DNA from: a virus
Strand: one strand, 5' to 3'
UHGV virus genome: UHGV-0466844
DNA length: 38,567 bases
The position numbers and the translations under genes are program-made. This document shows positions 937-38,458 of the stretch, one piece after another. The notes under the pieces were generated by a model, which searched no databases, had not been told where the DNA came from, and saw nothing but the letters and a program-made list of their open reading frames with translations. Each line of letters begins with the position of its first letter. Positions within the stretch are counted from its first letter, which is position 1.

Positions 937-952
937 CTTTCTTTGGTATAAT
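937..952 (+). promoter_or_regulatory. Sigma70 extended -10 promoter (TGgTATAAT, 944-952); the 16-mer CTTTCTTTGGTATAAT is identical to the one at 34664-34679
   Basis: TGnTATAAT match read directly. It lies ~45 nt upstream of the TTG start at 1002, which has RBS AAAGGAGA. Confidence 0.45.
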
Positions 953-1001
953 CTCCTTATCAGTCAGTGGTCGGCTGAAATAATCAAAAGGAGATGATTA
1001 T

Positions 1002-1202
1002 TTGTTTGTTGATGCAAAAGAGTTTGCTTTAGCTGTTGTTTCTTCCTCTAATCCAAATTTGACAATCCAAGAGAAATTTGAATTATACGAAGCAGCTTAT
1101 TCGCTTGCCGATTCAAAAATTAGGCAAGTAAATGACGAGCGGAAGAAAAAACAACCTTCGGTTAAAGATAAAATTAACGCTGCAAAACAGTTGGGGCTGT
1201 AG
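1002..1202 (+). CDS. Small hypothetical protein (66 aa, TTG start), opposite strand to the surrounding early operon
   Basis: ORF with RBS AAAGGAGAtgattatTTG and its own promoter. It overlaps the 3' end of minus ORF 1174..1392 convergently by 29 nt. It could instead be an antisense transcript. Confidence 0.35.
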   Translation: MFVDAKEFALAVVSSSNPNLTIQEKFELYEAAYSLADSKIRQVNDERKKKQPSVKDKINAAKQLGL

Positions 1203-1392
1203 CTAAAGCTTTGAGGATTTCTGCAATTGTGCGGATTTCCTCTTTTTCGAATTGATCAATCAATCGATTAAAGGTCCCTACAGCTGCTAAAGATAGCTGT
1301 TGTTCGGATCCCGAAAAGGCAGATTCATACATTTCTAACAAATCTTCACTCTCGTTTTTTTCTATTCCTTTGATTTCTTCCATTCCTCTCAC
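1174..1392 (-). CDS. Hypothetical early protein (72 aa)
   Basis: ORF in the leftward early operon; ATGA-type overlap with the upstream gene. Confidence 0.45.
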   Translation of the reverse strand: MRGMEEIKGIEKNESEDLLEMYESAFSGSEQQLSLAAVGTFNRLIDQFEKEEIRTIAEILKALATAPTVLQR

Positions 1393-2193: not shown

Positions 2194-2790
2194 ATGGCTA
2201 CATTTAATTTAAAAAAACGTAGAGAAGAACTGAATTTATCGCAAGAATCTGTCGCTGAATCTATTGGCGTTACAAAAGCAACTGTAAGCAAGTGGGAAAA
2301 AGGCGATATAGCTAATATGAAGAGAGACAAAATCGCTTTATTAGCAAAAGTTCTTAAAGTTAGCCCTTTAAGCATCTTGGGATTAGAAGATGTTAGTGAT
2401 AGTGATCGAGTGATGATTCCTATATTAGGAACAATAATGTGTGGTGAACCAATTTTAGCGGAAGAGAATATCGAAGGTTATAGAGAAGAGATTGCTGACT
2501 TTTTACCATCTGGTGAATTATTCTTTCTTAAAACAAAAGGTGACAGCATGGAACCTACAGTGCCTGAGAAAAGCTATGTTTTACTAAGAAAACAAGAAGA
2601 TGTCGAAGATGGCGAAATAGCTGCAGTTATAGTTAATGGGGATAATGAAGCAACATTAAAACGAGTAAAAAGACAAAATGGAATAGTTATGCTTATTGCA
2701 GATAACAAAGATTATAGTCCAATATTGATTACCCCTGAAAACCCCGCGCGTATTATTGGTAAAGCTGTTAAAGTTAGTTTCGATCTATAA
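2194..2790 (+). CDS. cI: CI-like phage repressor: N-terminal XRE HTH plus C-terminal S24 (LexA-like) autopeptidase domain
   Basis: HTH region (QESVAESIGVTKATVSKWEKG) and S24 motif KGDSMEPT present. Preferred start is the second ATG (2194) with RBS AGGAGTGAaattgATG; the track ORF starts at 2176. Confidence 0.85.
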   Translation: MATFNLKKRREELNLSQESVAESIGVTKATVSKWEKGDIANMKRDKIALLAKVLKVSPLSILGLEDVSDSDRVMIPILGTIMCGEPILAEENIEGYREEIADFLPSGELFFLKTKGDSMEPTVPEKSYVLLRKQEDVEDGEIAAVIVNGDNEATLKRVKRQNGIVMLIADNKDYSPILITPENPARIIGKAVKVSFDL

Positions 2791-2872
2791 AAAAATCCCT
2801 ACCAAAGTTGCGACTTCGATAAGGGATCAGTATATTATGCATATTAATTATATCAAAAAAGAGGTGAAAGTA

Positions 2873-3073
2873 ATGGCAAAAATTAAATGTCCTAAATGTA
2901 GAAGTACCGATGTTGAGTTTATGAGCAATAATAGAAAAGGTTTTTCAGCTGGAAAAGCAGCGGCTGGTGCTGTGCTGACTGGTGGTATTGGTCTGTTAGT
3001 TGGTTTCGCCGGAAAAAAAGGTAAAAATGAATTCTTCTGCAGGAAATGTAACAATACTTTTTTGCATAAATAA
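2873..3073 (+). CDS. Small protein (66 aa) with two CxxC pairs (CPKC, CRKC) flanking a glycine-zipper hydrophobic segment; unknown function
   Basis: Internal ATG with RBS AAGAGGTGAaagtaATG (the track ORF 2756..3073 extends upstream without an RBS). Sequence GKAAAGAVLTGGIGLLVGFAG. Lies between cI and int, a common accessory-gene slot. Confidence 0.45.
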   Translation: MAKIKCPKCRSTDVEFMSNNRKGFSAGKAAAGAVLTGGIGLLVGFAGKKGKNEFFCRKCNNTFLHK

Positions 3074-3171: not shown

Positions 3172-4527
3172 TTGCAACGAGTAGCGATTTATATGCGTGT
3201 ATCAACTGATCAGCAAGCGAAACATGGTGACAGTTTAAGAGAACAACAAGAAACATTGGATGAATACATTAAGCAAAATAAAAATCTCAAAGTTGTAGAT
3301 AAGTATATTGATGGCGGTATATCAGGTCAGAAATTAAATAGAGATGAATTCCAGCGATTACTCGATGACGTGAAAAATGATCAAATAGATCTAATACTTT
3401 TTACGAAGTTAGATCGCTGGTTTCGTAATTTGAGGCACTATTTAAACACTCAAGAAATATTGGAAAAACACAATGTTTCATGGAATGCCGTGTCTCAACA
3501 ATATTACGATACAACTACAGCGTATGGGAGAACTTTTATCGCACAAGTGATGAGTTTTGCTGAATTGGAGGCACAAATGACTTCAGAAAGAATTAAGTCT
3601 GTTTTTTCCAACAAAATCCAACAAGGTGAAGTTGTTAGTGGGAAAGTCCCTTTAGGCTATAAGATTGAAAACAAAAGATTAGTTCCCACTCCTGATAAGG
3701 ATATTGTGATAGATTTATTTGATTATTATGTTCGAGTTGGATCTTTGAGAAAAACAACAACTTATCTAGAGGAAAAACATGGAATAGTTCGAGATTATCA
3801 AAGTGTTCGAAAACTTTTAACCAATGAAAAATACATCGGCAAACTTCGAAATAATCCAAACTATTGCGAACCTATTATCGACAAAGATGTTTTTGAAACA
3901 GTTCAACTAAGGCTATCTCAAAATGTAAAAACTAGCGGTTCACACGATTATATTTTTAGGGGACTTGTTCGATGTGCAGATTGTAATGGCAGCATGTCTT
4001 GTTCAACTTTAAAATCAAAGTATATAAAAAAGACAGACGGAGAAGTATCATATTACATTCGATCTTGTTACAGATGTACCAGACGAAGGAACAACCCTAC
4101 AAGATGTAAAAATAAAAAGACTTATTATGAGCGAGCATTAGAACGTTATTTGCTAGATAACATACAGACGAATATTGCAATGCATGTAAGAACTTTGAAA
4201 AAAGAGGTAACAAAGAAAGATTCTGTAAAAAGAAAAAAAGATGCTCTTTTCGTAAAAATCGAAAGATTAAAAAAAGCCTATCTTAACGAAATTATTGAGT
4301 TAGATGAATATAAACGTGATAGAGAAATGTTGGAAAACGAAATAGCCAATTTGAAAGAACCTAAAATCAATAAAAATATAGCTCCGTTAAAAAAAGTCTT
4401 GAGTGATGACTTCTTTGAAAAATATGAAAAAGCTTCAATTAATCAAAAAAATGAGTTATGGCGCTCAATAATAGAATCAATAGAGGTTAGTGTAGATGGA
4501 AATATCACTATAAATTTCTTGCCGTAA
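3172..4527 (+). CDS. int: Large serine recombinase (phage integrase): resolvase catalytic domain, recombinase domain, Cys-rich zinc ribbon and C-terminal coiled coil
   Basis: N-terminus (M)QRVAIYMRVSTDQQ has the catalytic-Ser strand. Cys cluster CADCNGSMSC...CYRC. Size 451 aa. TTG start with RBS AGGATGTGAttcaacTTG. Confidence 0.9.
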   Translation: MQRVAIYMRVSTDQQAKHGDSLREQQETLDEYIKQNKNLKVVDKYIDGGISGQKLNRDEFQRLLDDVKNDQIDLILFTKLDRWFRNLRHYLNTQEILEKHNVSWNAVSQQYYDTTTAYGRTFIAQVMSFAELEAQMTSERIKSVFSNKIQQGEVVSGKVPLGYKIENKRLVPTPDKDIVIDLFDYYVRVGSLRKTTTYLEEKHGIVRDYQSVRKLLTNEKYIGKLRNNPNYCEPIIDKDVFETVQLRLSQNVKTSGSHDYIFRGLVRCADCNGSMSCSTLKSKYIKKTDGEVSYYIRSCYRCTRRRNNPTRCKNKKTYYERALERYLLDNIQTNIAMHVRTLKKEVTKKDSVKRKKDALFVKIERLKKAYLNEIIELDEYKRDREMLENEIANLKEPKINKNIAPLKKVLSDDFFEKYEKASINQKNELWRSIIESIEVSVDGNITINFLP

Positions 4528-4645: not shown

Positions 4646-4915
4646 ATGAAAAATAAAATATCTGTTGTTACTGGTGCGCATCCTACGACAAAAAAAGAAC
4701 GTATATATGAAACTGTCCTCTATACATTTGTTTTAATTGTTTCCATGGTCATCGTCTCGTGGTTATTCCATTTAACTGACGGATGGTTAGTTCTTCTGTT
4801 ATTGGGCTTCGTTTCTCTTATTTATTTTGCAATAATGTATGACACTTGGACCCGTCAAAGTACAGAAGATCATGAAATTATTGATAATCCTGTTTGTGAA
4901 AAGGATAAGGAGTGA
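4646..4915 (+). CDS. Small membrane protein (89 aa, two predicted TM helices)
   Basis: Hydrophobic stretches VLYTFVLIVSMVIVSWLF and WLVLLLLGFVSLIYFAIMY. The RBS GGGAGG is 12 nt from the ATG, which is suboptimal. Confidence 0.35.
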   Translation: MKNKISVVTGAHPTTKKERIYETVLYTFVLIVSMVIVSWLFHLTDGWLVLLLLGFVSLIYFAIMYDTWTRQSTEDHEIIDNPVCEKDKE

Positions 4916-32690: not shown

Positions 32691-34598
32691 CTAATCTTTC
32701 ATGTAGTATTTCGTCTCAAAACCGGCTGCCGCTAACGGTAATCCTTCTGCCCATTCAGGTACAACTGACATGATTTGATTCATTTCTTCAACGGAATGCA
32801 CGCCATCTGGAACTTCTGCAACAGCCTCATCATGTACATGAAAGACAACGGGATAGCCCTCTTTTTCCAGTCTCATCATTGCTTCTGCTAAAATATCTCT
32901 GGCTGTCGCTTGGACAATGTTTTCCACTAGCTTTCCACCATAGGTCTGCTGTTTCGTGAAAACGACTTTGTCCCCCTGTCCTTCATAAAAGATTGCTGGG
33001 CCATAGTTTCCTTCTTCTAGATGCGCTTTTGCATAAGCTAGTTTGCGACCACTTGGCAGCTGAATAAAAAGAAATCCGTTCTTTTTGTAGAACTTTAACC
33101 CTTTAGGCCCTTTTTTGATGCCACCGTTTTGAAGGCAGGCAATGACTGCTTTTTGTGTGTCATACCAAAACGAGCGAATGCGTTTGTTGGCATCTCGCCA
33201 TCGATCGACGATATCCTGCAGTTCATGTTCTTCAATACCATTATCTAGCGCCCCCATTGCTTTTAGCGCACCAGGACCACCTTGATAGCCTAGTGCCAGA
33301 GTTGCCACTTTTCCCCGTTGCCGCATGGCTTTACCTTCATTATTTTTCCAATCATAGCTTTCTACCTCCCCAAGGTGAAACATCTGTGCCGCAGTCGCTT
33401 CATAGATTTTCCCGTGCGTTCGAAATACATCCAGTACCCACTCTTGATTTGCATACCAAGCAATCACACGGGCTTCAATCGCTGAAAAGTCACTAATGAT
33501 AAATCGATGCCCTTCTTTTGCGACCAATCCTGTCCGGATCAATTGTTTCAACGTATCCGGCACACTGTCATACATCCACTCGATTGCTTCTGTATCTTTA
33601 GCTTTGATCAATTCTCTTGCAAAGCCGATTTCATCCAAGTAGTTTCTCGGCAAATTTTGAACTTGTAACAATCTCCCAGCCCAACGTCCCGTCCGATTAG
33701 CCCCATAAAATTGCAGAATGCCATGAATTCGTCCGTCACGACATCGGGCGCCATCCATCATGAGATATTTTTTTGTGCTTGAATTTGAGAGATTCAACCG
33801 TATTCTTAGCGCCCTCTCAACGTTTTCTGGCAAATTACCACTATTGACTGCCGCAGTAACTAACTCTTTACCAAGTGTTTCAAAAGGGGCTCCTTGTCCT
33901 TTTAACCACTCTTTTAATTGTTTCAAACTATTGGGATTTTCTAAACCGGTCACTTGCTTGAGTTCATTCATATTTTTGGCTGTTAACTCCTCCATGATTT
34001 CAATCGCTGCACTGGCAAGTTCGTGATCGATTTCAGCCCCACGATCATTAATCCGTTGATCCAATGAATAAAGTGCCCATTCACTCTCTTTTACTGGAAA
34101 ACGATTTAATTTGTCCGCTATTGCCATTTCAACCACTACGTCTTGGATACAATAATAGGTAAACGTCTGCCATTTTTCTGGATCATGATCTGGAAGATTC
34201 CTTGTCCGCATCCCATTTGCCTTAGTCGGTTTACAAGGTTTCGAAAAATAATTAATTAATTGTGTCCCACGAGTATCTTTTTGTTGTTCAATATTCAAGT
34301 ATTTTGCACATTGTCCTAATGAAGCTGGTAAGCCTAATTCATTCGCATGGACCATCGTACAATGCCATTGTTCTGGATCTAAATAGTAAGGAATTCCCAA
34401 GTGTTTAGATAAGCAAACTCGTTCGAATTGCGCGTTAAAGGCAATCTTGAGAACATTTTTATCCGTTAATGCATGCAGTATATCTTCCGGAATTTCACTG
34501 ATTGTCATGTCTATGCATTCAACAGTTCCACCATCGACAGAATAGGCAAAAAGCAATATTTCAAAGTTTGGACTTTCTGCATATTTGTAGACACCCAC
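32691..34598 (-). CDS. Family A DNA polymerase (phage-type, with an N-terminal 3'-5' exonuclease-like region and no 5' nuclease domain)
   Basis: Motif A-like ISDFSAIEARVIAWYANQEW and motif C VVFHVHDEAVAEV. GTG start. Confidence 0.85.
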   Translation of the reverse strand: MGVYKYAESPNFEILLFAYSVDGGTVECIDMTISEIPEDILHALTDKNVLKIAFNAQFERVCLSKHLGIPYYLDPEQWHCTMVHANELGLPASLGQCAKYLNIEQQKDTRGTQLINYFSKPCKPTKANGMRTRNLPDHDPEKWQTFTYYCIQDVVVEMAIADKLNRFPVKESEWALYSLDQRINDRGAEIDHELASAAIEIMEELTAKNMNELKQVTGLENPNSLKQLKEWLKGQGAPFETLGKELVTAAVNSGNLPENVERALRIRLNLSNSSTKKYLMMDGARCRDGRIHGILQFYGANRTGRWAGRLLQVQNLPRNYLDEIGFARELIKAKDTEAIEWMYDSVPDTLKQLIRTGLVAKEGHRFIISDFSAIEARVIAWYANQEWVLDVFRTHGKIYEATAAQMFHLGEVESYDWKNNEGKAMRQRGKVATLALGYQGGPGALKAMGALDNGIEEHELQDIVDRWRDANKRIRSFWYDTQKAVIACLQNGGIKKGPKGLKFYKKNGFLFIQLPSGRKLAYAKAHLEEGNYGPAIFYEGQGDKVVFTKQQTYGGKLVENIVQATARDILAEAMMRLEKEGYPVVFHVHDEAVAEVPDGVHSVEEMNQIMSVVPEWAEGLPLAAAGFETKYYMKD

Positions 34599-34663
34599 TT
34601 TTGTCAGATCTTCATCTGAATATGTCTCAATATCAATATTTAAGGTTTTGATAACGCTTCACC

Positions 34664-34679
34664 TCTTTCTTTGGTATAA
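34664..34679 (+). promoter_or_regulatory. Extended -10 promoter (TGgTATAAT, 34671-34679); the 16-mer CTTTCTTTGGTATAAT is identical to 937-952
   Basis: Read directly; 33 nt upstream of ATG 34713, which has the strong RBS AAGGGAGGAAG. Confidence 0.5.
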
Positions 34680-34712
34680 TTTATTTGAACAAAAATAAGG
34701 GAGGAAGAACAA

Positions 34713-35204
34713 ATGAATATTTATCAAATGCAAGCGCTAGACTATGTCCTGAAGGAAAATAAGTATCTCAATAAAGTAGATTTCAACTATATAATTATTT
34801 TCAAAATGAATAATGAACTTTATGAAGCAGACTTTTTGGAAGTAGACGAAAGTGGTGTCATTCTTGAAAATCCTACAATCACTCCAACAGGAGGAATCTC
34901 TCAGTTCGAATACTATTATGACTCCTATAAAGAAAGTCCTCTTAAGAAGGCTAATATTCAGGTATTCCCTAGACAAGGTGGTCCTTACTCTAGAAAACTC
35001 CAAAATATTCTAATTGAAGGAAAATCACTTCATTTAATCCACAAATCTCTTCTTGAAGTAATTGAGAACACAGAAGGTACCAATAACTTAGATCCTATTA
35101 TTTACAACGTTAAATCCTTAACTCATGACTACCAACTTCCTTATATGCTAGTAGACGAATCCACTGAATTTGAATGGATTTCTTTAGATAAAAAAGAAAA
35201 CTAA
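34713..35204 (+). CDS. Orphan plus-strand protein (163 aa, AT-rich, no recognisable domain): a moron inserted between polA and the SSB
   Basis: Own promoter, strong RBS and a bidirectional terminator. Opposite orientation to the entire replication operon. Lower GC than its neighbours. Confidence 0.6.
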   Translation: MNIYQMQALDYVLKENKYLNKVDFNYIIIFKMNNELYEADFLEVDESGVILENPTITPTGGISQFEYYYDSYKESPLKKANIQVFPRQGGPYSRKLQNILIEGKSLHLIHKSLLEVIENTEGTNNLDPIIYNVKSLTHDYQLPYMLVDESTEFEWISLDKKEN

Positions 35205-35214
35205 CAAAAGATAA

Positions 35215-35240
35215 GGGGGGGCTTTGCAGCCCCCTATTTA
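35215..35240. terminator. Bidirectional rho-independent terminator (GGGGGCT-ttgc-AGCCCCC flanked by A-run / T-run)
   Basis: 7-bp G/C stem read directly between the convergent 34713..35204 (+) and 35245..35832 (-) genes. Confidence 0.65.
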
Positions 35241-35244
35241 CTTT

Positions 35245-35832
35245 TTATGCAAACATGTCGTCGTCACTGCCGTCCTCTTCTTCTTCATCCCAGTCAAGAT
35301 CACCGAAATCAGATTCAGCATTGGCACGTCCGCCAAGGAAGTCACCTTTTCCTGTTGTCAAAATGTTATTCAGACCAGCAGTTACGCCTTTATTTCCTGC
35401 TGTGTTATAAGCGTAAAAGTTAATTGACGCAATCGCATAAACGCCAGAGTAAACATCGTCCGCATCATCTGTTTTAACAAGCATGCCATCTTCACGCTTC
35501 ACTACTTGGGGTTTCGTTTTAGAAGAGACGTTGATAAACATCGCATTTTCAAATTCAGGGCGCTCTTCTGTATCCATTTCTTCATCACCATCACGCAGAG
35601 ACGTTTTCAAACGATCAAATTTAACACCTTTCAACTTGTCTGATTTCCCTGCTTCATAAGCTGCTTTAATTGCGCTGTTCATTGCTTTTAGAGTTTCCTT
35701 GTCATCCTTCGAAATAATTAGCATTGTAGAATATTTTGCCTCTTGTCCTTCAAATGCATGAGGTTCCAACACGTGGACAAAGCTCAACCGTACTTTATTT
35801 GTAATTACTTTCGTTCCATTCACTTTTGCCAT
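35245..35832 (-). CDS. Phage single-stranded DNA-binding protein (DUF2815 / gp2.5-like) with an acidic C-terminal tail ending in F
   Basis: N-terminal [13 protein letters not shown] motif. C-terminus [16 protein letters not shown]. Confidence 0.65.
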
Positions 35833-37858: not shown

Positions 37859-38458
37859 TTAGTGTGTTCTAACTGGCGCGATAAGACCTTGAAACAGTCC
37901 TTCAACCTTAAAAATCATTGGTTTTAAAGAACCAGATACAAGCAACTCCGTGACGCCGATACTACAATCTGCAATGAACGCCATAACATAACTCAGATAC
38001 GTACAGTTAAACGTCAGGCTAATACCATCACTGTCTCCGGTTACGTAATCCGCAAGTCGGAAATCAGAACTGATCACTGTGTTACTAATGTGAAAGCTTT
38101 TATCCTGAACGGATACATTAACCAAACTATTCTTTTCAAATCCTTTTAAGAATTTAGCAATCTTCGCAGCCTCTTCTGGTGCTAATAACCACGTAGCCTC
38201 GATGTTCGAAGGGAATAACCGAGATACCTCAGGATAAGTCCCTTGTATTTCTCGCATTTCTTTCGGATGTAAAACCATATCTGGTAATGGATCTACCCTT
38301 AAATCGATTGCACTCACCAACCGTAATAAGATGTGCCCGTTTGTTGCTTCAATATCTCCATCTTGCGTATAGTGGAAACCTTTTAGAATAGGACGTGATG
38401 GCGAATTTGCAACGAAGTTTAGTAAATGACGATAGGTGTTTTGAGGTTTTAATTTCAT
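37859..38458 (-). CDS. Hypothetical protein (199 aa)
   Basis: ORF with no confident motif; a weak resemblance to clamp-like folds is not reliable. Confidence 0.45.
   Translation of the reverse strand: MKLKPQNTYRHLLNFVANSPSRPILKGFHYTQDGDIEATNGHILLRLVSAIDLRVDPLPDMVLHPKEMREIQGTYPEVSRLFPSNIEATWLLAPEEAAKIAKFLKGFEKNSLVNVSVQDKSFHISNTVISSDFRLADYVTGDSDGISLTFNCTYLSYVMAFIADCSIGVTELLVSGSLKPMIFKVEGLFQGLIAPVRTH

What the first reader, a model, noticed from the sequence alone, without database searches (positions are those of the whole stretch)
34664..35240. AT-rich orphan gene on the opposite strand inside the replication operon, with its own promoter and bidirectional terminator
The 163-aa ORF 34713..35204 is the only plus-strand gene between 26.4 kb and the window end, sitting between polA and the DUF2815 SSB. 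It has an extended -10 promoter (TGgTATAAT), a near-consensus RBS (AAGGGAGGAAG) and a GC-rich bidirectional hairpin terminator. It is visibly more AT-rich than its neighbours and has no motif I can recognise. This matches a moron expressed from the prophage independently of the lytic programme. Such loci often encode superinfection-exclusion, abortive-infection or anti-defence functions, so it is the best candidate here for an undescribed accessory function.
Basis: partly seen in the sequence, partly recalled or inferred. Interest (0 to 1): 0.7.

Follow-up and report, generated by a model that had tools for sequence, protein, structure and literature searches.

The report
Backward-facing accessory gene cassette in phage
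A small self-contained gene of unknown function sits backwards between two DNA-replication genes of an Enterococcus-type temperate phage; it is an optional, swappable accessory cassette ("moron"), and its protein belongs to an uncharacterised family with no match to any known fold.

Summary
ORF 34713..35204 (+, 163 aa) is a real gene under purifying selection (dN/dS about 0.2). It has a TGGTATAAT extended -10, a strong RBS and a two-way hairpin terminator, and its GC is about 0.33 against 0.42 in the flanks.

Comparison with 77 related SSB-polA loci supports the moron reading. The SSB-polA junction is empty (about 43-58 bp) in most relatives, including a phage with 98-100% identical flanks. 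Elsewhere the slot holds other cargo.

The gene is not an orphan. An exhaustive profile search finds 53 cluster representatives, mostly 150-175 aa and acidic. They occur in temperate Firmicutes phages (Paenibacillus Harrison gp56, Staphylococcus pseudintermedius phages). One is a conserved Listeria chromosomal gene, by synteny lmo1257, which is reported as very highly expressed.

In every phage context examined the gene stands alone on the strand opposite its lytic neighbours. Where a repressor and integrase are present, it shares their strand.

Function is untested. My best guess is a constitutively expressed, non-enzymatic binding protein that serves the lysogen. This is a new member of a known kind, of moderate interest.

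The parts
34665..34680 (+). Promoter module CTTTCTTTGGTATAAT. The extended -10 TGGTATAAT is at 34672-34680 and there is no recognisable -35. The predicted transcription start is near 34687.
   Evidence: Sequence. This is one of only 4 TGNTATAAT sites in the window. TG(A/G)TATAAT is conserved at the same position in L003, L006, L069 and L094 despite 41-63% protein identity. The same module precedes unrelated backward cargo (DUF4145 proteins) in L010, L021 and L074. An identical 16-mer occurs at 937-952. Function as a promoter is inferred, not shown.
34698..34708 (+). Ribosome-binding site AAGGGAGGAAG, with core GGAGG at 34700-34704, 8 nt before the ATG.
   Evidence: Sequence. An equivalent AAGGAG is present in the L003, L006 and L069 alleles.
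34713..35204 (+). Coding sequence of the 163-aa protein: 19.1 kDa, pI 4.7, net charge about -10, no Cys, no membrane segment.
   Evidence: ORF list. dN/dS is 0.20-0.25 between alleles. There are 7 close homologues and 53 representatives in the exhaustive profile search. The AlphaFold2 model has pLDDT 94.2 and pTM 0.89.
34731..35030 (+). Allele-variable segment of the gene, about residues 7-106.
   Evidence: Nucleotide identity to the otherwise 90-100% identical phage in L003 falls to 52-70% only in this stretch. dS over the gene is 1.19. This points to replacement by a diverged allele through recombination between conserved ends.
35216..35235 (.). GC-rich hairpin with T-runs on both sides, acting as a two-way intrinsic terminator shared by SSB (minus strand) and the 163-aa gene (plus strand).
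   Evidence: Terminator scan on both strands. Folding energy -18.2 kcal/mol on each strand. It is present at the empty site in L008. In L006, L069 and L094 it is replaced by a different but fully paired hairpin, AGGAGGCC....GGCCTCCT.
34650..34669 (-). Right-hand junction of the cassette, which is also the polA translation-initiation region. It holds the SD GAAAGAGGTGA (34659-34669), an in-frame TGA (34659-34661), and ATC (34650-34652) at the position where relatives with an empty slot have ATG.
   Evidence: Alignment with the empty site L008: ATG AAT ACC there against ATC AAA ACC here. All loci with backward cargo have ATC or ATT at this position, while most others have ATG. The ExoI motif DIET lies upstream of the GTG at 34598 that the ORF lister uses.
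35245..35832 (-). Left flank: Enc34/DUF2815 (Gp2.5-like) ssDNA-binding protein.
   Evidence: PF10991 E 6e-61; phrog_112.
32691..34652 (-). Right flank: family A DNA polymerase with 3'-5' exonuclease domain.
   Evidence: PF00476 and phrog_17. It is 85% identical to polA (gp21) of Enterococcus phage phiFL4A.

Best explanation
The locus is a self-contained accessory cassette (a 'moron') in the SSB-polA junction of a complete, circularly permuted temperate siphophage genome of the Enterococcus phiFL4A type.

Shown by comparison:
- The junction is empty in most relatives and in a near-identical phage.
- The cassette runs from about 34653 to 35210.
- It uses a hairpin terminator that already exists behind SSB.
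- It brings a promoter module (CTTTCTTTGGTATAAT) that abuts the polA ribosome-binding site.
- The same promoter/polA-start junction is shared by unrelated backward cargo genes in sister phages. The slot therefore behaves as an exchange site between conserved ends, and even the 163-aa gene has been swapped for a diverged allele between otherwise identical phages.

Inferred:
- The gene is transcribed by host sigma-A RNA polymerase from the extended -10 promoter. It runs in the direction of the repressor and integrase, against the early lytic operon, and ends at the hairpin.
- No repressor-operator-like sequence was found at the promoter, so expression is probably constitutive and continues in the lysogen (my estimate about 0.75).
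- The product is a soluble, acidic 19-kDa alpha/beta protein. The family has no conserved catalytic-type residues, so it most likely acts by binding another macromolecule stoichiometrically.
- The conserved N-terminal helix (QLQALDxLLK) and the C-terminal sheet (LYN, LPF, VS) would form the scaffold. The variable middle (about residues 15-105) would set the partner.
- Most likely role: a lysogen-benefiting or phage-competition function, such as interference with incoming phages or another conversion trait. I put about 0.35 on defence specifically.
- A side effect may be that its convergent transcription blocks leaky early transcripts from reaching polA and primase in the lysogen.
For: Slot and cassette:
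- SSB and polA are adjacent (gap 8-106 bp) in about 50 of 77 related loci. L008, with SSB 100% and polA 98% identical, has a 56-bp gap and no gene.
- Other cargo occupies the same slot. There is a backward DUF4145/phrog_1305 protein in L010, L021 and L074. There is a same-strand gp19+gp20 pair in phiFL4A-like phages. There is also a clamp-like protein and a 2.6-kb block with a methyltransferase.
- Every filled slot examined has lower GC than its flanks.
- The promoter module and hairpin are conserved, or compensated, among alleles of 41-63% identity. The junction is shared with DUF4145 cargo.
- The allele swap is confined to 34731-35030.

Gene reality and orientation:
- dN/dS is about 0.2.
- The orientation matches the S24-type repressor (2176-2790) and serine integrase (3172-4527) here, and cI/integrase in L003 and L006.
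- In the nine distinct phage or prophage contexts examined, the gene is a lone gene opposite its lytic neighbours. Three different positions occur: next to the antirepressor, at SSB/polA, and before the terminase. In a tenth, ambiguous context (L092) it is also opposite its immediate neighbours.
- No exact match of 9 nt or more links the promoter to the cI-cro region.

Listeria homologue:
- It has the same unit architecture (TGTTATAAT, RBS, strong terminator).
- By synteny it is lmo1257, reported as the 11th most abundant transcript in L. monocytogenes (PMC8273982; lmo1258 = lipase neighbour, PMC7253607).

Protein properties:
- Soluble and acidic: pI 4.7, family median 4.9, maximum hydropathy 0.95.
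- Only L13, F41, N132 and S157 are nearly invariant across 56 sequences.
Against: - No expression data exist for this phage. The promoter has no -35, was not called by the scanner, and TGNTATAAT is not enriched in the window.
- No member of the family matches PADLOC, Pfam or NCBIfam, and the fold has no structural neighbour. The proposed activity therefore rests on context and composition only.
- A conserved, highly expressed chromosomal homologue in Listeria outside any prophage fits a general cellular role as well as it fits a phage-competition role.
- The operator search used exact words only, so a degenerate repressor site would be missed.
- Backward orientation does not prove lysogenic expression.
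Confidence: 0.6

Rival explanations
1. It is an immediate-early counter-defence or host-takeover protein. On this view it is made from a host-type promoter as soon as the phage DNA enters the cell. It then acts as an acidic decoy or inhibitor, as Ocr/ArdA-type DNA mimics and other small anti-defence proteins do. It would be silenced later by the oncoming early/middle transcription.
For: - The protein is strongly acidic and has no catalytic signature.
- It is small and single-domain.
- It shows presence/absence and allele swapping between near-identical phages, which is also typical of anti-defence loci.
- A sigma-A promoter would fire immediately on entry.
- The convergent arrangement offers an automatic shut-off.
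Against: - The gene is co-oriented with repressor and integrase wherever these are present. Known early anti-defence genes are usually at the head of the lytic early operon.
- A conserved chromosomal copy in Listeria is hard to explain as an anti-defence gene.
Confidence: 0.17
2. It is part of lysis-lysogeny control. The protein would modulate the antirepressor or another early factor. Alternatively the convergent transcription unit itself would be the functional element, acting by transcriptional interference or antisense RNA against early or replication genes, with the protein secondary.
For: - In Staphylococcus, Paenibacillus, Halolactibacillus and metagenomic phages the family gene lies 2-5 genes downstream of cro. 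It is beside or near a Bro/ANT/pRha/ORF6N antirepressor.
- In those phages its 3' end overlaps the convergent early gene by 10-45 bp.
- That convergent neighbour is itself conserved at 35-52% identity.
- In the window, early transcripts must cross the gene antisense to reach polA.
Against: - A near-identical phage lacks the gene, so it is dispensable for the switch.
- In the window-type phages it is far from the antirepressor and has no homologue of the usual convergent partner.
- It occupies at least three different genome positions.
- Purifying selection on the protein shows the protein matters.
- The Listeria copy has no phage switch to control.
Confidence: 0.15
3. It is a dedicated accessory factor of the polA/SSB replication module, for example a polymerase or SSB partner. 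On this view its position between the two genes reflects function.
For: Its position between SSB and polA is conserved in all seven close homologues.
Against: - It is absent from about 50 relatives with the same module and from a near-identical phage.
- Distant family members sit in phages with unrelated replication modules (ERF/SSB/DnaD/IstB-type) and in a bacterial chromosome.
- It is on the opposite strand with its own signals.
Confidence: 0.03
4. It is not a functional gene. On this view it is a chance ORF in AT-rich spacer DNA, or a decaying remnant.
For: None beyond the lack of any annotation.
Against: - dN/dS is 0.2 with dS up to 1.2 or more.
- There are 53 full-length representatives.
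- The AlphaFold2 model is confident once the family alignment is supplied: pLDDT 94, against 47 with 8 sequences.
- The RBS and promoter are conserved.
Confidence: 0.01

Closest known systems
Morons of lambdoid phages (Hendrix/Juhala definition from HK97/HK022 comparisons; my own knowledge)
   Same: It is an extra gene between two genes that are adjacent in related phages. It is flanked by its own promoter and a terminator, has a different base composition, and is presumed to be expressed from the prophage.
   Different: It lies inside the replication module rather than in late or lysogeny regions. It is transcribed against the surrounding operon. It uses a terminator that pre-exists at the site. 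Its promoter junction is shared by different cargo genes, so the slot works as an exchange site. Expression in the lysogen was not tested.
Abi-alpha (ef2833, DUF4393) of Enterococcus faecalis V583 prophage 6 (PMC6356687)
   Same: It is a single gene in an enterococcal siphophage prophage that lies outside the integrase-repressor block. It is constitutively expressed during lysogeny and had no known function until tested, when it proved to be an abortive-infection gene.
   Different: There is no sequence relationship: no DUF4393 hit, and 272 aa against 163 aa. A defence phenotype has not been tested for the 163-aa protein.
PHROG families phrog_17213 and phrog_7137 (unknown function)
   Same: Five and one of the 56 aligned family members match these phage protein families, with best E-values of 3e-15 and 3e-14.
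   Different: The window protein itself matches neither, and the PHROGs carry no function.
Paenibacillus phage Harrison gp56 (YP_009193869.1) and Staphylococcus phage phiSP119-2 / phiSP38-1 hypothetical proteins (AZB66757.1, AZB66553.1)
   Same: They belong to the same family. The Staphylococcus proteins, which were not in the profile, score E 2.5e-20 and 6e-20 against it. Harrison gp56 is 71% identical to family member P0059. All are about 165-170 aa and stand alone on the repressor/integrase strand inside the early operon.
   Different: They are only about 20-25% identical to the window protein. They lie near cro and the antirepressor rather than at SSB/polA. Their 3' ends overlap a convergent early gene instead of ending at a hairpin. 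All are annotated only as hypothetical.
Listeria chromosomal protein of the P0022 cluster (by synteny lmo1257)
   Same: It is a family member: E 1.5e-6 in the library-wide profile search and pairwise BLASTP E 4e-8 at 23% identity. It has the same stand-alone unit of TGnTATAAT, RBS and strong terminator.
   Different: It is not in a prophage. It sits between a NUDIX gene and a lipase gene, next to the trehalose and proBA operons. It is conserved in L. monocytogenes, L. marthii and L. welshimeri (374 cluster members). It is reported as very highly expressed (PMC8273982). The lmo1257 identity is inferred from gene order, not from a sequence match.
Membrane superinfection-exclusion proteins of Gram-positive temperate phages (Sie2009, Ltp; my own knowledge)
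   Same: They are prophage-expressed single genes that vary between related phages.
   Different: Those proteins are membrane-anchored or lipoproteins encoded between integrase and repressor. The 163-aa protein has no hydrophobic segment or signal peptide and lies elsewhere in the genome.

Membership tests
Moron (autonomous accessory transcription unit in a phage genome) | Lies between two genes that are adjacent in related phages | tested here: met
   SSB and polA are 8-106 bp apart in about 50 of 77 related loci. L008 (SSB 100%, polA 98% identical) has a 56-bp gap without the gene.
Moron (autonomous accessory transcription unit in a phage genome) | Own promoter | tested here: inconclusive
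   TGGTATAAT at 34672-34680 is conserved as TG(A/G)TATAAT in diverged alleles and in other backward cargo. However, there is no -35, the scanner did not call it, the motif is not enriched in the window, and no transcript data exist.
Moron (autonomous accessory transcription unit in a phage genome) | Own or adjacent terminator | tested here: met
   The hairpin at 35216-35235 was called on both strands and is stable. Pairing is kept by a different sequence in L006 and L094. It pre-exists at the empty site. This is sequence-level evidence only.
Moron (autonomous accessory transcription unit in a phage genome) | Base composition differs from neighbours | tested here: met
   GC is 0.31-0.34 against 0.36-0.45, and 0.33 against 0.42 in the slot analysis.
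Moron (autonomous accessory transcription unit in a phage genome) | Expressed from the repressed prophage | not testable with these tools
   No transcriptome is available. Indirect support: no shared word with the cI-cro region, and a homologue with the same promoter architecture is highly expressed in Listeria if it is lmo1257.
The 150-175 aa acidic family defined here (alignment A3) | Full-length profile match with the QLQALDxLLK, GDF, LYN, LPF and VS motifs | tested here: met
   The window protein seeded the profile. 53 representatives score E<=1e-3, nearly all over their full length. Staphylococcus phage proteins outside the profile score E 2.5e-20 and 6e-20.
Abi-alpha / DUF4393 | Pfam DUF4393 domain | tested here: not met
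   The window protein and all 56 family members give no such Pfam hit.
Known anti-phage defence proteins (PADLOC-DB v2) | Match to any of the 5027 models | tested here: not met
   No hit for the window protein at E<=10, nor for any of 56 members at E<=0.01. The library dates from 2023, so newer systems are not covered.
Membrane superinfection-exclusion proteins (Sie/Ltp type) | Transmembrane segment or lipoprotein signal | tested here: not met
   The maximum 19-residue Kyte-Doolittle hydropathy is 0.95, there is no Cys, and GRAVY is -0.46.
Core component of the DUF2800/DUF2815/polA replication module | Present wherever the module is present | tested here: not met
   Only 7 of the 77 loci compared carry it, plus L094 and the window itself.

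The most novel reading that the evidence does not exclude
The 163-aa protein would be the founding member of a new single-protein system with a previously unseen fold. Temperate Firmicutes phages, and Listeria chromosomes, would express it constitutively from a portable extended -10 promoter to block competing phages or to stabilise lysogeny. The variable middle of the protein would act as the specificity determinant. The SSB-polA junction of phiFL4A-like enterococcal phages would be a dedicated exchange site in which such backward cargo genes are swapped between a conserved promoter/polA-start junction and a conserved terminator.
Probability: 0.3. Interest if true: 0.7.

Novelty: new member of a known kind. 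Interest (0 to 1): 0.45.

Why it matters
Prophage accessory genes are the main reservoir of undiscovered phage-defence, anti-defence and lysogenic-conversion functions. They are hard to prioritise. This one has an unusually clean case for being an autonomous, optional and exchangeable unit:

- There is an empty-site relative.
- An allele swap is confined to the gene.
- The promoter junction is shared with other cargo.
- It belongs to a family that always stands alone on the strand opposite its lytic neighbours, across several genera.
- The predicted fold is confident and has no structural precedent.
- The likely Listeria homologue is already known to be among the most abundant transcripts.

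Together these make it a tractable target for experiments: deletion or over-expression in Enterococcus, Listeria or Paenibacillus, followed by phage challenge and pull-downs.

The finding also shows that the SSB-polA junction is an insertion hot spot. Backward cargo at this junction goes with a non-ATG start on the phage polymerase.

Tried and rejected
- Megablast of the 4.7-kb region against 50,697 phage records found nothing.
- tblastn of the protein gave only weak hits, E 0.01-0.6. The profile later confirmed the Staphylococcus hits, and a stronger tblastn from P0059 confirmed the Listeria hits.
- The first AlphaFold2 run with 8 sequences gave pLDDT 47 and was discarded.
- The AFDB Foldseek library was unavailable.
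- A profile search against PDB sequences gave only chance-level hits to designed proteins.
- Rfam gave nothing near any gathering score.
- I tested whether the conserved, convergent, 3'-overlapping gene of about 80 aa seen in Paenibacillus- and Halolactibacillus-type phages forms an obligatory pair with the family. It has no homologue in the window or in the window-type loci, so the pair idea was dropped.
- I looked for a repressor operator shared between the cI-cro region and the promoter and found none, using exact 9-mers only.
- The antisense 88-aa ORF 34737..35003 is not conserved in L003 and was dismissed.
- Literature searches for a described backward gene near antirepressors found only an analogous 79-aa backward gene in S. 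aureus phage ASZ22RN, with no assigned function. A search on Paenibacillus phages found nothing relevant.
- dN/dS for the most diverged pairs could not be computed because of saturation.
Full report

The ORF 34713..35204 (+) of 163 aa is present.
- The RBS AAGGGAGGAAG is at 34698-34708.
- TGGTATAAT is at 34672-34680.
- A GC-rich hairpin at 35216-35235 was called terminator-like on both strands. It folds at -18.2 kcal/mol in either direction.
- GC falls to 0.31-0.34 over the ORF, against 0.36-0.45 around it.
- The neighbours are a family A polymerase and an Enc34/DUF2815 SSB, followed by a phrog_1669 protein and a DUF2800 PD-(D/E)XK nuclease, all on the minus strand.

Two cautions apply. The -35/-10 scanner did not call a promoter, because there is no -35. 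TGNTATAAT is also not over-represented in the window (4 found, 2.47 expected). The promoter call therefore rests on position and conservation, covered below.

**2. What genome is this?**

The window is a whole, circularly permuted temperate siphophage genome.
- On the plus strand lie an HTH-S24 repressor (2176-2790), a small Zn-ribbon/membrane protein, and a serine integrase (3172-4527).
- A cro-like gene (1792-2007) and everything from lysin to replication genes are on the minus strand.
- The 163-aa gene therefore points the same way as the lysogeny genes.
- The nearest named phage is Enterococcus faecalis phiFL4A (polA 85% identical). A 44% homologue of the protein lies in an Enterococcaceae genome (L069).

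**3. Is it a real gene, and is it an orphan?**

It is a real gene, and it is not an orphan.
- The word-indexed search found 6, then 7, close homologues at 37-98% identity.
- dN/dS between alleles is 0.20-0.25, with dS up to 1.2 or more.
- An exhaustive profile search of 1.84 billion representatives found 53 proteins at E<=1e-3. Nearly all are 150-175 aa and aligned end to end.
- The alignment shows an N-terminal QLQALDxLLK helix, then GDF, LYN, LPF and VS motifs. Only L13, F41, N132 and S157 are nearly invariant.
- No member matches Pfam, NCBIfam or PADLOC. Six members match PHROGs of unknown function.
- Staphylococcus pseudintermedius phage proteins that were not in the profile score E 2.5e-20 and 6e-20.
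- Family member P0059 has 71%-identical matches in Paenibacillus larvae phages Harrison, Paisley, Mock2, Bert, Dash and Callan.

**4. Structure.**

With 8 sequences AlphaFold2 failed (pLDDT 47). With the 56-sequence family alignment it gave pLDDT 94.2 and pTM 0.89. The model has:
- a long N-terminal helix;
- a beta-hairpin region;
- three helices;
- a three-stranded C-terminal sheet.

The protein is soluble and acidic: pI 4.7, net charge about -10, family median pI 4.9. It has no hydrophobic segment and no Cys. The absence of conserved polar residues argues for a binding protein rather than an enzyme. This last point is inference.

**5. Is the slot variable?**

I fetched 77 loci encoding relatives of the SSB and located SSB, polA and the 163-aa gene in each.

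| Slot content | Loci | Notes |
|---|---|---|
| Empty (8-106 bp between SSB and polA) | about 50 | Includes L008, with SSB 100% and polA 98% identical to the window and a 56-bp gap |
| The 163-aa gene | L007, L009 | 99% and 96% identical |
| The 163-aa gene, diverged allele | L003-L005 | 63% identical, flanks 98-100% |
| The 163-aa gene, distant allele | L006, L069, L094 | 39-44% identical |
| gp19+gp20, same strand | phiFL4A-like phages | |
| Backward DUF4145/phrog_1305 protein | L010, L021, L074 | |
| Clamp-like protein, same strand | L052, L053 | |
| 2.6-kb block with a methyltransferase | L071 | |

Every filled slot examined has lower GC than its flanks.

**6. Anatomy of the cassette.**

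Alignment with the empty site shows three things.
- The hairpin terminator is native to the SSB 3' end. It is present in L008. In L006, L069 and L094 it is replaced by a different but fully paired hairpin.
- The insert runs from just after the T-run (about 35210) to the polA initiation region (about 34653).
- On the polA side, ATG AAT ACC of L008 has become ATC AAA ACC. This is preceded by an SD GAAAGAGGTGA at good spacing and by an in-frame TGA.

The GTG at 34598 used by the ORF lister lies downstream of the ExoI DIET motif. The real start is therefore probably the ATC at 34650-34652.

All loci with backward cargo share the junction CACC.ACTTTCTT(T)G(G/A)TATAAT and have ATC or ATT at the polA start. 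This holds for both the 163-aa family and the DUF4145 proteins. Loci with same-strand cargo, and all but one empty-slot sequence type (L046/L073, ATC), have ATG or TTG there. The promoter module therefore belongs to the slot, and cargo is exchanged between conserved ends.

Consistent with that, identity between the window and L003 drops to 52-70% only across 34731-35030 (residues 7-106). It stays at 90-100% on either side. With dS 1.19 in the gene, this indicates allele replacement by recombination rather than in-place divergence.

**7. The promoter.**

- TG(A/G)TATAAT is kept 35-41 nt before the ATG in the L003, L006, L069 and L094 alleles.
- A perfect or near-perfect -10 at a similar distance precedes most distant members (L001, L089, L091, L092) and the Listeria homologue.
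- Within the window, the identical 16-mer CTTTCTTTGGTATAAT recurs at 937-952. There it lies 50 nt upstream of a second backward gene, 1002..1202 (66 aa, phrog_6930), in the early region.
- No exact word of 9 nt or more is shared with the cI-cro intergenic region. There is thus no sign of repressor control, though degenerate operators would have been missed.

**8. Family-wide context.**

I examined nine distinct phage or prophage contexts:
- the two window-type groups;
- S. pseudintermedius phiSP119-2 and phiSP38-1;
- a metagenomic prophage (L084);
- a P. larvae prophage and phage Harrison;
- L087/L088;
- Halolactibacillus (L089/L090);
- P. albidus (L091).

In all of them the gene is a single gene on the strand opposite the flanking lytic genes. 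Where a repressor and integrase are present, it is co-oriented with them. A tenth context (L092) is ambiguous; there too the gene is opposite its immediate neighbours.

Its position varies:
- most often 2-5 genes downstream of cro, beside an antirepressor, with its 3' end overlapping a convergent early gene;
- at SSB/polA in the window group;
- just upstream of the terminase block in P. albidus.

The convergent neighbour is homologous among four of these phages but has no counterpart in the window. It is therefore not an obligatory partner.

**9. A chromosomal homologue.**

The GenBank records named 'Listeria phage LM 4-11-1/4-14-1' are bacterial chromosome fragments. The gene order is treR-treA-treB-NUDIX-[family member]-lipase-proA-proB.
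- The family member there is P0022. Its 90% cluster has 374 members in L. monocytogenes, L. marthii and L. welshimeri.
- It scores E 1.5e-6 in the library-wide search. Pairwise against the window protein it scores E 4e-8 at 23% identity.
- It is again a stand-alone unit with TGTTATAAT, an RBS and a strong terminator.
- By gene order it should be lmo1257, since lmo1258 is the 'putative lipase' (PMC7253607).
- lmo1257 is listed as the 11th most abundant transcript in L. monocytogenes, with TPM 8372 and 9943 (PMC8273982).

The locus-tag assignment is an inference from synteny. If it is right, this promoter architecture drives strong constitutive expression, and the family is not confined to phages.

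**10. How it most likely works.**

Shown:
- It is an optional, exchangeable, autonomous unit.
- It encodes a protein under purifying selection.
- It belongs to a wide family that stands alone on the opposite strand.
- It is soluble and acidic, with no known fold and no known domain.

Inferred:
- Sigma-A transcription starts near 34687 and ends at the shared hairpin. It is constitutive and therefore on in the lysogen.
- The protein acts by binding a partner. The conserved N-helix and C-sheet form the scaffold, and the variable middle sets specificity.
- The unit's convergent transcription may also dampen leaky early transcripts heading for polA and primase.

The most likely biological role is a lysogen-benefiting or phage-competition function, as for Abi-alpha of E. 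faecalis prophage 6. That gene is likewise a constitutively expressed single gene outside the lysogeny block (PMC6356687).

The rivals are an immediate-early anti-defence protein, a lysis-lysogeny modulator linked to the antirepressor, a replication accessory factor (largely refuted by L008), and a non-gene (refuted).

**11. Novelty and verdict.**

The kind of element, a moron in a temperate phage, is well known. The particular protein family is uncharacterised, and the predicted fold has no PDB match.

The added findings of moderate interest are:
- the slot-level exchange with a shared promoter/polA-start junction;
- the consistent opposite-strand orientation across the family;
- the highly expressed Listeria homologue.

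Function remains unknown, and nothing here demonstrates a new mechanism. I rate it a new member of a known kind, with interest 0.45.

Noticed in passing
window 34598-34669 (minus strand); also L003, L006, L007, L009, L010, L021, L069, L074: polA probably starts at a non-canonical ATC (34650-34652), 6 nt after the SD GAAAGAGGTGA, and not at the GTG (34598) given by ORF callers. The GTG would cut off the ExoI motif DIET. Every locus with backward cargo in the slot has ATC or ATT at this codon. Loci with same-strand cargo, and all but one empty-slot sequence type (L046/L073, ATC), have ATG or TTG.
   Followed up: partly
window 937-1202 (+): A second backward unit lies in the early region. A 66-aa ORF (TTG 1002..1202, RBS AAAGGAG, phrog_6930 E 4e-15) is preceded at 937-952 by the same 16-mer CTTTCTTTGGTATAAT as the 163-aa gene. 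Its 3' end overlaps the convergent gene 1174..1392 by 29 nt.
   Followed up: partly
L010, L021, L074 (slot between SSB and polA); L003 7151-7828: Backward 219-236-aa proteins with a DUF4145 domain (phrog_1305, 'DNA binding protein') occupy the same SSB-polA slot in E. faecalis-type relatives, behind the same promoter junction. L003 carries another backward gene with a faint DUF4145 hit, between the primase and polA.
   Followed up: partly
L097 (GenBank OR846872.1); also OR846871.1, OR848181.1, OR848182.1: Records deposited as 'Listeria phage LM 4-11-1 / 4-14-1' (11.5-12.4 kb, flagged UNVERIFIED_ORG) encode trehalose PTS/phosphotrehalase, NUDIX, lipase and proBA genes. They look like bacterial chromosome fragments rather than phage DNA.
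   Followed up: partly
L084 8478-8744, L085 8548-8799, L087 8454-8837, L089 8449-8694 (all minus strand): A conserved early protein of about 80-127 aa (motif ERDPL.HLKKRIS, 35-52% identical) is always convergent with the family gene and overlaps its 3' end in Paenibacillus- and Halolactibacillus-type phages. It has no homologue in the window.
   Followed up: partly
window 2756-3073 (+) and 4646-4915 (+): Two small plus-strand genes flank the integrase in the lysogeny block. One is a Zn-ribbon protein with a C-terminal hydrophobic stretch (phrog_6837/24502). The other is an 89-aa protein with two hydrophobic segments. Both are candidate lysogen-expressed membrane proteins.
   Followed up: no
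window 37859-38458 (-) and L052/L053 slot cargo: The 199-aa early protein of the window is a distant homologue (23% identity, pairwise E 1e-9) of the 206-aa clamp-like protein (weak DNA_pol3_beta_3 hit). In L052 and L053 that protein sits in the SSB-polA slot on the same strand.
   Followed up: partly
PMC12323379 (S. aureus phage ASZ22RN gene 41): S. aureus phietaviruses carry an unrelated-looking 79-aa acidic backward gene immediately upstream of the antirepressor, overlapping the preceding gene. The 'backward gene next to ant' slot therefore seems general in staphylococcal phages.
   Followed up: no
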